A DNA stretch of 63,169 bases, filler included, from Parachlamydiales bacterium (GTDB lineage: Bacteria; Chlamydiota; Chlamydiia; Chlamydiales; Parachlamydiaceae): assembly GCA_020051075.1 (NCBI GenBank). It is 3 parts of 3 records of this genome, joined end to end, with 100 filler letters (N's around TTAATTAATTAA, not from the genome) between each part and the next. Parts side by side here need not be neighbours in the genome. Positions count along the whole stretch, not along the records: positions 1 to 24,385 come from JAGVJP010000051.1; 2 more parts are not named here. One strand, given 5' to 3'. Within the stretch, counting starts at the first letter, position 1, and the number at the start of each line of letters is the position of its first letter. Position numbers: made by a program. This document shows, in pieces, positions 1-9,000 of this stretch.

Positions 1-3000
1 AGGCCGTCAGGCCTGGGAACAGTTCACACCTATTTATGAGCCCTGAAAGGGCGACACTTGGAGTTGGTTAAAAAGAATTTGGAGATCATACTCTATGGAG
101 CCAAGCGAACAGCGTTGAGGTAGGCAGAGATTCCTGTCGAGCCTGTAGCACCCGCATTAGTAGGAGGATTTAAGAAGAACAAATCTCCGCTCGTATTATT
201 TAACGAAACAGCATAGCCAACACTTGTCACAGGAAGAAGAAAAGTTTTAGAATTCAACTCATTTATGCTAAAATTCGTTCGAAAGACTGTTAAAGCTGAT
301 CCATCTAATTCGCTTCCAACTAGGATGTTGCTTGAACCGTCAACAAGAGAGAGTTGATTTGACTCACCTTTAGAAAGTGAACCAATCGAAACCACACTGC
401 ATTTTCCGTAGACGAGAAGATAAGTCCCTGTCACTGAAAATACCAGCTGGCCTGTTCCTGGGCTATAGGTAATCCCAGAGGCTGAGGTGGCAACCGTGTT
501 AAAATGAATCGGCTGATTATTGAGTAATGTCAAGTCTGATAGTACGCTTGGGATAAGTTGCAACGATGCCCAAGGATCGGTGAAATTAATGAATTGTTGA
601 CTCCCTCCGGGTGTGCCGGTTGGTCCTGTATTTCCAGTGGCACCTGTGATCCCTGTTGGACCAATAGCTCCCGTGTTTCCGGTGTTACCGATAGCGCCAG
701 TGGGGCTTATTCCCGTAGGACCAGTCACGCCCGTAGCGCCTGTAACCCCAATCGCACCGGGGGTGCCTGTATCACCGACAGCACCGGTTTGACCTGTGTT
801 GCCATCAGCTCCATCCAACCCCGTTGCTCCTGTATTGCCAATGGCGCCAACCGCGCCCATTGCCCCCGTCGGGCCTGTAGGGCCTATTTCTGCACCGGTT
901 GCTCCGATAGGGCCAGTCGGCCCCCCTGTGCCGGTATTACCCAAAGGCCCGGTGTTGCCTTGCGTACCTATCGTTCCTGGAATAGAAGGTCCTATTGCTC
1001 CAGTGATACCCATCGGACCGCGATGCCCTCTGCGTCCTATACGCACTTTCTTTTTGTCTATGCGCTTTTTTCTTTGCACCTGATTTTGTTCCAAAGAGTG
1101 GGGGATATTGATGTCACTAATTGGGAAATTCGTTTGGGAGTCAGCAGGGGCTGTGAGAGTGATAAGAATGGCAAGAAGAGAGAGAGTTCTCATGATTTTT
1201 GAATTCATTTGTCGCCTATGAGAATGAGGGTTAGATATGCCGTTACGTCGGTGCCAGCTGAAGGTCCTGTCGCACTCGGATTTGTAATAAAGCATCCGAG
1301 TTGCAGGTCAGTCCCATCTGAGGTGATATTTGTGAGCGAGACCTTATCGTTAGCTGAAAATTGAGAGATGATGCACTGTTGTCCTAACGACAGATTATCA
1401 GCAATCACAGTTTCACTTTCTGGGACAATAGTGACGCCATTCTTCTGTACGGCTAAGCGAATGCCATCGGGAGCTTGACCTGCGCCTGTTAAAGAACATC
1501 CGTAAGACAAAAAATAATTTCCATCAAAAGGGATGGTGACGAAAGTGGCTCCAGGAAGTCCAGCGGTAGAAAAATTGAGGGCGGTAGAAGAACTCATGAA
1601 GGGAATGGAAAAACTTAGAGGAACGACATTACCTCCCGAAATCTGGTTGGCCTGGGTGTATACATAAATATAAGCTTGATTAAGGCCTATCGCCGTTCCT
1701 CCAGGTGCTCCAATTGCCCCAGTGGCTCCAGTATTGCCATTCGGTCCATTAGCCCCAGTGCTTCCTGTCGGTCCGGTTGCTCCAGTGTTTCCTGTTGGTC
1801 CAGCGGTACCAATCGCTCCTATATTGCCAGTCGCTCCAATGGGTCCTGTTTGTCCTATGGCACCCTGCGCACCAGTATCGCCCGTTGCTCCTATTGCCCC
1901 GACTGCTCCTGCTGGACCAGTGTCTCCTATTGCTCCTGTTACTCCGGTGTTTCCTGTAGCTCCTTGTTGGCCTGAAAGGCTGCCGGGTGCATCAGCGCCC
2001 GCTGGGCCCGTGGGCCCTGTGAGGCCAATCGCTCCAGTCTTTCCTTGATTGCCAGTAGTGCCTTTGGCACCAGCCAGTCCTATTGTCGCTGGACCTTGAG
2101 GCCCTTGAGGTCCTTGCGGTCCTCGCTGCCCCCTTGGCCCTCGTCTAGTGTGATCCAGTCGATGGCTCTCGATAGAGCGTAAAGTTGCTTGGTTAGAATA
2201 TTCTTCTAGCTTGTCGTTATCGATAGAGTAAATCTGTAACGGAGCCGTGATCAGTAAGGATAATAGGAGATTTCTAAACACTAATACCTCTCTAAGGTGT
2301 GATTTGCATGATAGTAAGGTAGCCATAAGTGTATCCATTGACTGTATCTGGAGCAAAATCAATGGTAGTTGATGGAGAGGTCACGTTGACTAAGGTCAGT
2401 GCGTCGGAAGCACTCAACAACAGAATAGCAGATCCTGTTGGCATGACAGCAGGATAGATGGAATTTATGATCGTGTTGTTCAGTACAGTGGCGTTTTGTT
2501 GAAGGGCAAAGCTTATTGTCCCGTCGCCAAATCCGATCAGACCATAGTTGATGAGATACATTCCAGTCACTGGGATTGTGATTGTTGGTCCAGGAGGTGT
2601 GTAAGTAAAGGCCGATTGCGCGTCGACAGTCTCAAAGGGAAAGGCAGCTCCAGGCCCTACGCTTGTGACTCCTGTAGAAGTAGAAACGGATAGGAAGACT
2701 CCCATCGCAGCTCCTGTCGCGCCGGTTGGTCCGGTGTTCCCAATCGCTCCGGTGTCGCCTATTGCTCCTGTATCGCCAAGTGGACCCGTTGATCCTGTTA
2801 ACCCTGTTGCCCCCGTTGATCCAGTCTCACCAATGGCGCCAGTGTCTCCTGTTGCACCTGTTGGTCCTATCACACCATTGGTCCCAGGGTCACCAATCAC
2901 CCCTGTGGATCCAATGCTGCCTGGTAAGCCTGCGTTGCCAACAGCGCCAGTGCCGCCAGTGAGTCCGTTTGGTCCTGTCGGACCAGTGGGTCCAGCGGCG

Positions 3001-6000: not shown

Positions 6001-9000
6001 CATTGTAGTGATGGTTAGGTAGCCTACAGAAGAATTAAGGATAGTGGAGCCGTTCCGAGAGAGGGCTATACCACTTGCATCGTTAGTTTCACCTTGGCCT
6101 ATAAGACCATAATTGATGAAGTAAATCCCTGTAGCTGGGATGATTATCGTGGTTCCGCCGGAGAAAGTAAAGTTCGACTGAGCGCTGATGGTTGTGAAGG
6201 GAAATGCGGCGAATGCGTTTATTGACATATCGGTTGCTCCAGCAGGGGTATATGCAGACAGGAAGGTTGCTTTACTCTGCCCTGCGGCCCCTGTCGGTCC
6301 TGTAACTCCTATTGGTCCCGTGATCGTCCCTGTTGCTCCCGTTGAACCTGTTAGTCCTGTGTTGCCCGTCATTCCAGTCGCGCCTGTGGCTCCTATTTGA
6401 CCTGCTGCCCCGGTATCTCCTTTTGCTCCAGTATTTCCTATTGCGCCTGTTTGTCCTGTTGCGCCTGTTTGTCCATTGGGGCCAGGATCTCCTGTATTAC
6501 CCCGAGGCCCTTGTGCTCCCGTGTCTCCCGTTGCGCCTATTGGTCCATTGTTGCCAGTTGATCCTTGGGCTCCGGTGTTGCCTATTGCGCCGGTATTACC
6601 GGCTGCTCCTGGTAACCCTGGACCGATTGCATTAGGGCCGACGGGGCCGATCGGTCCGGTAGGGCCAGTGGGTCCTGTTAGACCGGCTGCTCCTTCAGGA
6701 CCGGTCGGCCCTCTTGGCCCTGTAGGGCCTGTTGGACCTGTCGGTCCGACTGGGCCTATGCGTCCAGTTGGGCCGCGGCAGCATTGCTTACTTCTTGCTA
6801 AGGGGAAAGAGGAGGCTATCCATTCATTAGTCGTGTTGTTCAGGTGAAGATAGGGGGGATGGTCGTTTTCTAATGTGTCAGAGTTGCAGTTCACAAGAGG
6901 GAATAGCATTGATAGAAGAAGGATAATGGGTTTCGAAGTCATATTGATCAAATCATCGTACAAGGGTAGAAGTAAAAAAATCAGGGCAATACTAACGGAT
7001 CAGGTAGGGATCTTCAACAATTATTTTGATTTTCTGGAAAATGGTAAATAGAGGCAGATTTTTAAAGGGACGGAGGAGGTGGGATTCGAACCCACGGTAC
7101 GGGTTAGCGTACACACGCTTTCCAAGCGTGCTCCTTAAGCCACTCGGACACTCCTCCAAGGAAGAACAAGAGTCTAGATTCTCTTGATTTTTGATGCAAG
7201 CATATTTTTTATTCTAATAAAATATGATTTGTGATATAATCAGTGTATAAAAAATTATAATAATGGTTGTTTATGAATATAGCTGATACTGTAAGTGCTT
7301 TGTTTTCTACCGATGAAGAAGTGAGAAGTTGTCTGGAAGGTCAAATTCTCCCTCGAAGATCAGATGGCAACTATTTACAGCGATTGGTGATCGTGTGGAA
7401 TGAAGATTTTCGTGTTGGTGTTGGTGCCGATGCTCAAATCAACAAACTTCAACACGTTTTTACAGCAGGGATTGACACCAAAAATCAAGTTTATATCGAC
7501 TGCAACAAAAGGTTGATTTGTCTTAAAATTGTCCTGTCTACTCTTTTTAGACCCATTGTCGGAACAGCATTTACCCTCTACTCTCTTTCCATGATTCCAA
7601 TTTTCAAAGCGATTGCATCGGCACGTTCTGGGGAAATCACCCGTTCGGAAGCTTTTGATCGTTCTGTCAAATCATTGGCTGATATTGTCAGGATTCCTCT
7701 TTATGAAGTGGTCTTGATTGTGGTTGGATGTGCGGCATTATTGATCGCTCCGTTCGCTCCTTCAACGCTCTATCGTTTTCGAGAACTCATCGGGAAAATC
7801 GAAAGGGCGAAATGCTATGGCAAGTTTAAAGGGAGCTTTGCTTTAGCTCCCTGTTTCCAATCTCGTGAGTTGAAACAAGTGATCAAAGACTTCGGGTTTT
7901 GGAAAACAGATCGAGTCAATAACCTCGACGTTCACGTTCGACTAACAAATTTCCCGGACACCGACTATGGAGATCATTCGATTGAGAAAATGCAAGAATT
8001 TTTGGGAGAGGAAAATTTCACAAGATTATTTGTTCGTCCAGCAGCCCGAGACATCCTTGAAAATGATCATTATTACCTTCATCAATCTTTCATTGAAACA
8101 TCCCGAATGATTCTCGACGAAGGCCAGCTCAACCAGCTAAAAAATTCTTTCGCCCAGCGCGCTTTGATCCATTACGCCAGAGCTCAAATCAAATCCATAA
8201 AAAATGGAGGAAATCTTGCAAGGAATGCCGTTTTTGCCAGTCCAGCGGCTTCTAGCATGGATGTTGAAGCGATTCGGAGAAATTCTAGGAGAAGTGGCTG
8301 AATTCCTTTTCAGCTTCAGGATCGAGAGCTGTCTCATATTTAATCGGCGTGTAGTTGACAAATTGGGCGAATCCTTTCCTGAAGGTGAGGTTGACAGTGC
8401 CTGTTCCTCCATGCCTGTTTTTTGCTATCAGCAGTTCTGCTGTTCCAGGTTTGTCGTTGGCATCATAATAATCCCGTCGAAAGAGAAACATCACAATATC
8501 AGAGTCTTGTTCAATGCTGCCGCTCTCTCTGAGGTCGCTCATCATTGGACGGTGTCCTTGCCGCTCTTCCACTTTACGGGAGAGCTGCGATAAGCATAAA
8601 ACAGGGATATTCAGTTCTCGTGCGAGGTTTTTAAGCATCCGAGAAATTTCTGAGATCTCACTTTGTCGATTTTCATTAGACCGGTTTGAGCCGCCTGTAA
8701 TCAGTTGGAGATAGTCGATGACAAGAAAGCCGATGTTGTGGGTTTCTTTCATCCGTCGGGCTCTTGCACGGAGGTCCGTCACTTTTAGTCCGGGTTGGTC
8801 ATCAATGATCATCACATGTTTCTGCATCTCGCTGACAGCGCCGACAACCCGTTGAAATTCTTGACCGTTGATCGCTCCTGTTTTGATTTTATCAGATTCC
8901 ACTTGAGCTTGTGAGCAGATCAGTCGATGGACGAGTTGTTCCGCTGACATCTCTAAAGAGAATATGCCTACAGGGATTTGATTTTTGAAACAGATATTTT

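What a model noticed while it worked through the whole genome (the two positions that open the first line are those of the whole stretch)
93..6909. Thirteen secreted collagen-like proteins with a BclA/C1q-type head in four tandem clusters
A family of 13 genes (14 gene calls) encodes proteins of 294-446 aa with a signal peptide, a basic stretch, 20-90 Gly-X-Thr/Pro collagen triplets and a C-terminal 150-170 aa globular domain of the BclA/C1q (TNF-like jelly-roll) fold: C29 93-6909 (g00455-g00460), C88 11783-15232 (g01696-98), C114 12227-15153 (g02286-88) and one gene broken over two contig ends (g01216 C73 1-1338 + g00069 C4 2-955). This is the build of the Bacillus exosporium nap protein BclA and suggests trimeric surface fibres on the chlamydial cell.
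Evidence so far: Pfam Collagen on all 14 calls (pfam.tsv, call 89); one BLAST cluster; alignment; AlphaFold model of the g02286 head (13 rows, pLDDT 78, pTM 0.76, call 96) matches BclA best (3tyj/1wck, E 1e-7, prob 1.0), then ExsFA and C1q-family heads. BclA_C (PF18573) matches in 113 of 400 Chlamydiales genomes; this genome has 10 or more (scoring capped at 10), most others 1-5. Three kb from the C29 cluster lies g00463 (C29 9825-10703), whose best Swiss-Prot match is human procollagen galactosyltransferase 2 (32.8%; call 133). No paper links collagen-like or BclA proteins with chlamydiae in two searches.
(Added by a program. Inside this text positions count along the whole contig: they may not be those of the stretch shown here. 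"Call 12" and the like, gene names such as g00115 and contig names such as C1 are that model's own, and its searches are not shown. The text may have been shortened before it was handed on; [...] marks where a part breaks off. The agent that wrote the report below was given it as the finding of a first reader that could run no searches.)

Follow-up and report, generated by a model that had tools for sequence, protein, structure and literature searches.

The report
Three-chain collagen fibres in chlamydiae
An environmental chlamydia and many of its relatives keep collagen-like genes in groups of three whose very different chains have stalks of nearly equal length, which suggests, but does not prove, that they wind together into one mixed three-chain fibre like animal C1q, whereas bacterial collagens are described as three copies of one chain.

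Summary
Confirmed: six co-directional genes (93-6942, minus strand) encode a signal-like N-terminus, a Thr-rich collagen and a BclA/C1q-fold head. The 12 clustered genes form four three-gene units whose collagen spans match within a unit and differ between units: 146/149/151, 162/161/167, 87/84/87 and 66/66/66 aa. Heads within a unit are only 18-36% identical, and the two window units pair up by position, so recent duplication does not explain the match. The family occurs in 151 of 400 Chlamydiota genomes. Of 29 gene triplets from 18 genomes, 22 match within 10% (random triplets 0.25%), with spans up to 1833 aa. Best reading (0.7): secreted ABC heterotrimeric collagens built like C1q. Main rival (0.2): three equal-length homotrimers bundled together. 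No physical evidence exists and the complex-prediction job never ran. Surface location, glycosylation and a role for the nearby glycosyltransferase are unshown, and the expansion is not unique. Published precedent: Pasteuria ramosa collagen triplets, function unknown. This scan has noted similar trios before on other DNA (another two bacteria, phages, giant viruses); my one word look-up found none from chlamydiae.

The parts
5845..6942 (-). Unit 1, chain C (first gene): 365 aa; Cys-Cys just before the helix; collagen span 167 aa (54 triplets, nt 6774-6274); 142-aa BclA/C1q-type head
   Evidence: head about 41-43% identical to unit 2 chain C, 15-25% to A and B chains
4610..5809 (-). Unit 1, chain B: 399 aa; collagen span 161 aa (51 triplets, nt 5593-5111); 166-aa head
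   Evidence: AlphaFold head model pLDDT 84, Foldseek best F-BclA/BclA E 1e-8
3447..4589 (-). Unit 1, chain A: 380 aa; basic stretch before the helix; collagen span 162 aa (53 triplets, nt 4430-3945); 165-aa head
   Evidence: AlphaFold head model pLDDT 82, Foldseek best BclA E 2e-8
2292..3341 (-). Unit 2, chain C: 349 aa; Cys-Cys before the helix; collagen span 151 aa (48 triplets, nt 3158-2706); 137-aa head
1205..2281 (-). Unit 2, chain B: 358 aa from a GTG start behind a GAGG site; collagen span 149 aa (47 triplets, nt 2140-1694); 162-aa head
93..1208 (-). Unit 2, chain A: 371 aa; start overlaps the chain B stop (ATGA); collagen span 146 aa (47 triplets, nt 1037-600); 168-aa head
6943..7040 (-). 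Upstream region of unit 1, homologous to that of unit 2; possible promoter (TTGAAG-17-TAGTAT seen by eye, not listed by the promoter scan)
   Evidence: 71% identity block over upstream region plus chain C start
3342..3446 (-). Spacer between the two units: a copy of the upstream region, showing that the three-gene unit was duplicated whole
9825..10703 (+). GT-A fold glycosyltransferase-like protein resembling the N-terminal domain of COLGALT1; link to these collagens possible but not shown
   Evidence: E 2e-27; homologues in 36 of 401 genomes, directly behind a collagen gene in 2 of 19 other loci read
1..57 (.). Dispersed short repeat at the contig start (over 30 BLAST hits in the genome), the likely cause of the contig break; the last gene is complete

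Best explanation
Each three-gene unit encodes the three chains of one heterotrimeric (ABC) collagen fibre. Shown: the genes come as ordered, closely spaced triplets; each chain has a hydrophobic leader, a Thr-rich Gly-X-Y stalk and a C1q/BclA-fold head; stalk length is shared within a triplet and changes in step when the triplet is copied. Inferred: the chains are exported by Sec, the three different heads select each other and nucleate a triple helix that zips towards the N-terminus, giving rods of about 42-48 nm (window units) with a three-faced head. Since one helix needs three equal chains, a length change in one gene is selected against until the other two follow. Weakly inferred: Thr O-glycosylation stabilises the helix, the basic or Cys-bearing N-terminal segment anchors or cross-links it in the envelope, and the head acts as an adhesin or shield facing the eukaryotic host.
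For: Genome: spans 146/149/151, 162/161/167, 87/84/87, 66/66/66; of 576 position-keeping rearrangements only the real one keeps all four units within 5%. Window heads group by position across units (40-47% identity) and not by unit (18-24%). Relatives: 219 genes from 73 genomes fall in runs of 1:89, 2:20, 3:19, 4:1, 5:1, 6:2, 12:1; 22 of 24 runs of three or more are multiples of three (P about 1e-4 under a geometric model). 22 of 29 triplets match within 10% against 0.25% of random triplets. At 20-30% head identity, 34 of 39 within-triplet pairs match against 30 of 259 same-genome pairs from other units. 17 of 18 triplets match in multi-triplet genomes against a permutation mean of 4.6, never reached in 20,000 shuffles. 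A 12-gene array in G153 steps 118/111/118, 51/54/51, 111/107/112, 93/90/90 with three position-specific head clades. No DNA homogenisation: longest shared collagen DNA 9-18 nt within this genome's units, in-register triplet identity near shuffled levels. An orthologous chain B in L277 has a 65-aa stalk and is followed by chain A. The head fold is that of trimeric C1q/BclA domains.
Against: No physical or complex-model evidence. 7 of 29 triplets miss the 10% limit, three badly (75/48/45, 82/48/45, 309/60/21). Only 10 of 21 gene pairs match, and 89 of 133 runs are single genes, presumably homotrimers. Helix interruptions are only partly in register among the window chains (near residues 18 and 48-50). 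The salt-bridge register test gave no advantage to mixed chains in this genome (0-1 pairs). Some matched sets are recent copies (G420 201/201/201 with near-identical leaders; G417, G446, G456 heads 47-76% identical). Triplets arose several times, so there are no universal A, B, C clades. Second-round loci were chosen because hits clustered, kin are not independent, and 2 of the 29 triplets were cut from runs of 4 and 5 after seeing lengths (20 of 27 without them).
Confidence: 0.7

Rival explanations
1. Three separate homotrimers (AAA, BBB, CCC) that must be the same length because they bundle side by side into one cable, or sit together in one appendage or layer.
For: Explains co-varying lengths; known bacterial collagens are homotrimers (PMC8968730); coupled stalk lengths between separate homotrimers are described for F-Anchor and BclA, though there one is longer (PMC12357932); interruptions only partly match among chains.
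Against: Gives no reason for the number three (22 of 24 long runs are multiples of three). One uniform surface layer is excluded, as one genome holds units of 66, 87, about 150 and about 163 aa and one array steps through four lengths. Matches within 1% at 1800 aa and exact at 39, 66 and 84 aa are tighter than a layer would need.
Confidence: 0.2
2. Equal lengths are left over from tandem duplication or gene conversion, with no joint assembly.
For: Fits a few loci with similar copies (G420, G417, G446); triplets in several genomes form their own clades.
Against: For 68 of 87 triplet chains the nearest head lies outside the own triplet, and only 18 of those 68 match it in length; 16 of 19 triplets with all heads under 40% identical still match; collagen DNA is not homogenised.
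Confidence: 0.06
3. Assembly or binning artefact of repetitive DNA.
For: Fragmented assembly (133 contigs, 5.7% contamination); cluster lies at a contig end; no reads could be laid on it.
Against: Six intact frames with distinct, non-repeated DNA; chlamydial DnaB on the same contig; same pattern in 17 other genomes; B-then-A order seen independently in L277.
Confidence: 0.02

Closest known systems
Bacillus BclA and F-BclA (exosporium nap and appendage-tip collagen-like proteins)
   Same: Gly-X-Thr-rich stalk plus C-terminal TNF/C1q jelly-roll head; best structural matches 1wck, 2z5w, 9h38; glycosyltransferase genes nearby in some loci.
   Different: BclA-type heads are homotrimers from one gene, on spores, with an exosporium-targeting leader. 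These are from a diderm non-sporulating chlamydia, have Sec-like leaders and come as length-matched triplets. BclA_C is below cut-off. AlphaFold3 found no mixed trimers among C. difficile BclA1-3 heads (bioRxiv 2025.06.24.661383, passages).
Pasteuria ramosa collagen-like (PCL) gene triplets, groups 1-2-3
   Same: Ordered, co-directional triplets of three chain types, duplicated as units, in a host-dependent bacterium (PMC13233619, section 17 read).
   Different: Different phylum; described as seemingly unique to P. ramosa in a Bacillota comparison; function of triplets 'is not known' (PMC10329263); no 'heterotrimer' in four papers' main texts. One ancestral triplet is proposed there; here triplets arose repeatedly. 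Whether PCL lengths match or heads are homologous was not tested; McElroy 2011 was not read.
Vertebrate complement C1q (chains A, B, C)
   Same: Three homologous but distinct chains with collagen stem and gC1q head from three neighbouring genes forming a heterotrimer (PMC4774423, passages); same head superfamily.
   Different: Head identity 10-13% to the modelled chain A head; Thr, not Hyp/Hyl, at Y; no evidence of a six-armed bouquet or protease partners. Works-like analogy, presumably convergent (inference).
Streptococcal Scl1/Scl2 and Legionella Lcl
   Same: Bacterial collagen-like secreted or surface proteins.
   Different: NCBIfam scores 47-93 bits against cut-offs of 325-500, matches centred on the repeat; different heads.

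Membership tests
BclA-type collagen-like proteins | Gly-X-Thr-rich collagen-like region | tested here: met
   Pfam Collagen above cut-off in 6 of 6; Thr at Y in 20-31 of 47-54 triplets
BclA-type collagen-like proteins | C-terminal TNF/C1q jelly-roll head | tested here: met
   Models of 2 of 6 window heads, Foldseek E about 1e-8 to BclA/F-BclA; profile hit to 1wck E 1e-12
BclA-type collagen-like proteins | Pfam BclA_C above gathering score | tested here: not met
   20.3 and 29.5 bits against 38 in 2 of 6; none in the other four
BclA-type collagen-like proteins | Exosporium-targeting leader and spore location | tested here: not met
   N-termini are hydrophobic Sec-like leaders; host is a Parachlamydiaceae-type chlamydia; that chlamydiae form no endospores is my own knowledge
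BclA-type collagen-like proteins | Homotrimer | not testable with these tools
   Complex prediction never ran; genomic evidence points to mixed chains
BclA-type collagen-like proteins | O-glycosylation of the stalk | not testable with these tools
   Only context: a glycosyltransferase query hits within 3 kb of 5 of 24 long runs, 2 of 20 pairs and 12 of 89 single genes
C1q-like ABC heterotrimeric collagens (works-like) | Three distinct homologous chains from three neighbouring genes | tested here: met
C1q-like ABC heterotrimeric collagens (works-like) | Collagen regions of matched length | tested here: met
   4 of 4 units here within 4%; 22 of 29 triplets within 10%
C1q-like ABC heterotrimeric collagens (works-like) | Interruptions and charges complementary in register | tested here: inconclusive
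   Interruptions partly shared; too few charges in this genome's chains
C1q-like ABC heterotrimeric collagens (works-like) | Physical 1:1:1 assembly | not testable with these tools
   No job ran; needs experiment
Pasteuria PCL triplets | Ordered co-directional triplet duplicated as a unit | tested here: met
   C-B-A, C-B-A in the window with duplicated upstream region; four units in G153
Pasteuria PCL triplets | Sequence membership of PCL groups 1, 2 and 3 | not tested
   No Pasteuria sequences were fetched
Scl1/Scl2/Lcl adhesins | NCBIfam equivalog cut-off | tested here: not met
COLGALT procollagen galactosyltransferase (gene at 9825) | Two-domain enzyme acting on hydroxylysine | tested here: not met
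   Only the N-terminal domain matches; 0-2 Lys per collagen; no PF13640 match in the genome. That the C-terminal domain is the catalytic one is recalled.

The most novel reading that the evidence does not exclude
Environmental chlamydiae have repeatedly evolved obligate ABC heterotrimeric collagens, from about 5 nm to about 520 nm long, whose three different C1q-fold heads select each other and fix chain composition as in complement C1q; the same rule would explain the Pasteuria triplets that determine host infectivity.
Probability: 0.6. Interest if true: 0.88.

Novelty: new variant of a known kind. Interest (0 to 1): 0.74.

Why it matters
[quoted passage not shown] Natural bacterial ABC triplets would overturn that rule and supply many heterotrimerising heads for building defined three-chain collagens in bacteria. 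They also make an open question testable: Pasteuria collagen triplets, not single genes, are linked to infectivity, yet their function is unknown (PMC10329263). For chlamydial biology, a fibre family in 151 of 400 genomes, which my searches did not find described, is a candidate for host attachment or shielding.

Tried and rejected
Complex prediction of the three unit 1 heads: the queue was full at every try, so there is no verdict. Sequencing runs: none was listed, so no reads were laid. Collection scans with broad head alignments could not run; the chain A pair found no relative in metagenomes; the chain B pair found one 1.1-kb contig. No close orthologue of chain A in 60 family genomes (only repeat-driven hits). 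Salt-bridge register test: inconclusive. Promoter scan did not list the shared upstream site. Gene conversion: rejected for this genome. One uniform nap thickness: rejected. Universal A/B/C clades: not found. COLGALT-like function for the 9825 gene: not supported, though 32 of 36 genomes with it also carry the collagen family (hand comparison; kin not independent) and two homologues sit right behind a collagen gene. ESM Atlas gave unnamed and BclA_C clusters, mostly Bacillota. Literature: ten searches. In the listings of the three chlamydia-directed ones no title concerned chlamydial collagen-like proteins; none of those papers was opened. The heterotrimer-directed ones (16, 35, 75, 126) led to no paper claiming a natural bacterial heterotrimer among those I opened. 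Subscription papers (McElroy 2011, Yu 2014) and all supplements were not seen and could hold the idea.
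Full report
SETTING. The window joins three contigs; bases 1-24385 are contig C29. The genome is 2.94 Mb in 133 contigs, 99.9% complete, 5.7% contaminated. The DnaB at 8285-9721 is 79-82% identical to records mostly labelled Parachlamydiaceae or Protochlamydia, so the host is an environmental chlamydia.

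OBSERVATION. Six intact genes lie head to tail on the minus strand between a dispersed repeat (1-57) and tRNA-Ser (7068-7158). Likely starts are 6942, 5809, 4589, 3341, 2281 (GTG) and 1208. Each product has a hydrophobic leader, a linker ending in basic or Cys-Cys residues, 47-54 Gly-X-Y triplets with Thr at most Y positions, and a 137-168 aa head. Models of two heads (pLDDT 82, 84) match BclA and F-BclA heads best, then C1q-family heads. A profile of 110 heads finds F-BclA (E 6e-26), C1q, adiponectin, collagen X and BclA by sequence. Pfam BclA_C stays below cut-off. The genome holds 16 collagen + head genes, not 13.

The six genes are a duplicated three-gene unit, C-B-A then C-B-A, with the upstream region copied too. 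Same-position heads are 40-47% identical; heads inside a unit only 18-24%. Yet collagen spans follow the unit: 167/161/162 and 151/149/146 aa. The C88 and C114 clusters are two more units, 87/84/87 and 66/66/66. Only 1 of 576 position-keeping rearrangements keeps all four units within 5%. I noted the heterotrimer idea, before seeing earlier findings.

RELATIVES. The head profile matches in 151 of 400 Chlamydiota genomes scored, including 38 of 46 others of the own family and 1 of 29 (E 4e-5) in a family of 1.0-1.2 Mb genomes that I infer to be Chlamydiaceae. I fetched 120 regions around matches; 240 matches were not listed and most were not followed. With the own genome this gave 219 collagen + head genes in 73 genomes, in runs of 1 (89), 2 (20), 3 (19), 4 (1), 5 (1), 6 (2) and 12 (1). 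Head-only genes and those with under four triplets were left out. Of 24 runs of three or more, 22 are multiples of three. Of 29 triplets in 18 genomes, 18 match within 5% and 22 within 10%; random triplets do so 0.25% of the time. Spans run from 18/21/18 to 1815/1817/1833 aa. In second-round loci 17 of 22 matched; I wrote the prediction down before reading those sequences but had already seen clustered hits and frame lengths, so this is not a blind test. Two triplets were cut from the runs of 4 and 5 after seeing lengths (20 of 27 without them), and one has a chain open at the locus edge.

CONTROLS. At 20-30% head identity, 34 of 39 within-triplet pairs match, against 30 of 259 same-genome pairs from other units and 478 of 11,029 pairs from other genomes. 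For 68 of 87 chains the nearest head is outside the own triplet, and only 18 of the 68 match it in length. In seven genomes with two or more triplets, 17 of 18 match against a permutation mean of 4.6. G153 carries twelve genes in a row that step through four lengths while their heads sort into three position clades. Collagen DNA inside this genome's units shares at most 9-18 nt and in-register triplet identity is near shuffled levels. L277 holds an orthologous chain B with a 65-aa stalk, followed by chain A. One triplet in G091 is 84/84/84 although its middle gene is inverted.

AGAINST. Seven triplets miss 10%; 75/48/45, 82/48/45 and 309/60/21 clearly fail. Only 10 of 21 pairs match. Most loci are single genes. 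Some matched sets are recent copies. Interruptions are only partly in register and the charge test was uninformative. Triplets arose several times (FastTree, low support at deep nodes). Kin are not independent.

MECHANISM. A triple helix needs three chains of equal length, and C1q-fold heads are trimerisation domains (established knowledge; PMC12357932 and PMC4774423, passages). Three divergent chains in one closely coupled unit, with lengths locked together, is what an ABC heterotrimer predicts. I infer Sec export, head-driven chain selection, zipping towards the N-terminus and rods of 42-48 nm (at 0.286 nm per residue, recalled; one search gives about 2.8 A). Location is open. A barrel gene lies within 3 kb of 5 of 24 long runs, 8 of 20 pairs and 30 of 89 single genes, but of none of this genome's three triplet loci. 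The two C31 collagen genes each precede a Legionella_OMP barrel, the only two found in the genome. A T2SSF gene is present, so type II export is possible (inference). Cys lies within 12 residues before the helix in 51 of 87 triplet chains and 43 of 77 single genes, so it may cross-link or anchor but is not special to triplets.

GLYCOSYLTRANSFERASE. The 9825 gene matches only the N-terminal domain of COLGALT1. Homologues occur in 36 of 401 genomes; in 2 of 19 other loci read they follow a collagen gene directly, but the five closest relatives have none within 1.5 kb. With 0-2 Lys per stalk, a hydroxylysine-galactosylating role is unlikely; Thr glycosylation remains a guess.

WHAT IS KNOWN. [quoted passage not shown] AlphaFold3 found no mixed trimers for C. 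difficile BclA heads (bioRxiv 2025.06.24.661383, passages). Pasteuria ramosa has ordered collagen gene triplets, called seemingly unique in a Bacillota comparison (PMC13233619, section 17 and passages), linked to infectivity but of unknown function (PMC10329263, passages). 'Heterotrimer' does not occur in these two or in two related preprints (term searches). McElroy 2011 and all supplements were not seen. Passages of PMC11923368 and PMC13138384 added background only. Earlier scan notes describe similar trios in other bacteria, phages and giant viruses; these are unchecked and are not counted as support. The Pasteuria lead came from one of them and was then read.

VERDICT. Real. The parts are of a known kind (BclA/C1q-headed bacterial collagens); the length-locked three-chain organisation across Chlamydiota is a new variant with strong comparative and no physical evidence. 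ABC heterotrimer 0.7, bundled homotrimers 0.2, duplication legacy 0.06, artefact 0.02. Interest 0.74.

Noticed in passing
G000 C31:47341-51207 (L003:5387-9208): Duplicated two-gene unit: short collagen + C1q-head gene followed by a Legionella_OMP beta-barrel; these are the only two PF05150 matches in the genome. Possible anchor or export pair.
   Followed up: partly
L113 and L115 (G104): RHS-repeat regions (with DUF6531 in L115) are in frame with collagen + C1q-head chains; three collagens in L113 span 127/125/126 aa with a barrel gene between two of them.
   Followed up: partly
L147-L148 (G324) and L152 (G462): Very long collagen stalks: 1815/1817/1833 aa (about 520 nm) and 2058/2362 aa.
   Followed up: partly
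L139 (G091): Two triplets inside a glycosyltransferase island; the 84/84/84 triplet has its middle gene on the opposite strand.
   Followed up: partly
L192 (G326), L196 (G203): Single collagen gene followed directly by a COLGALT1-like glycosyltransferase and a second GT2-like gene: a likely collagen glycosylation operon.
   Followed up: partly
window 11015-11632 (+): 205-aa protein with a leader, GGGH repeats and a Tyr/Asn-rich tail; no Pfam or NCBIfam match.
   Followed up: no
window 1-57: Short dispersed repeat with over 30 BLAST hits across the genome, REP- or MITE-like.
   Followed up: no
G000 C85:54887-56630; L060, L073, L131: Tandem pairs of C1q/BclA-head genes with no collagen stalk.
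   Followed up: no
G000 C31:7327-8115, C51:15719-16504, C77:7587-8951: Secreted-looking short collagens whose heads do not match the family profile; the C31 and C51 heads are 70% identical.
   Followed up: no
G000 C73:1-1359 and C4:2-955: Single collagen gene with long near-perfect Gly-Asn-Thr/Gly-Ala-Thr repeats (117 and 59 triplets) on two contig ends; join not shown.
   Followed up: partly
window 7267-8301 (+): 344-aa protein between tRNA-Ser and dnaB with no Pfam or NCBIfam match.
   Followed up: no
G000 C1:17602-23238: 1878-aa autotransporter-like protein with a Gly-rich repeated passenger.
   Followed up: no
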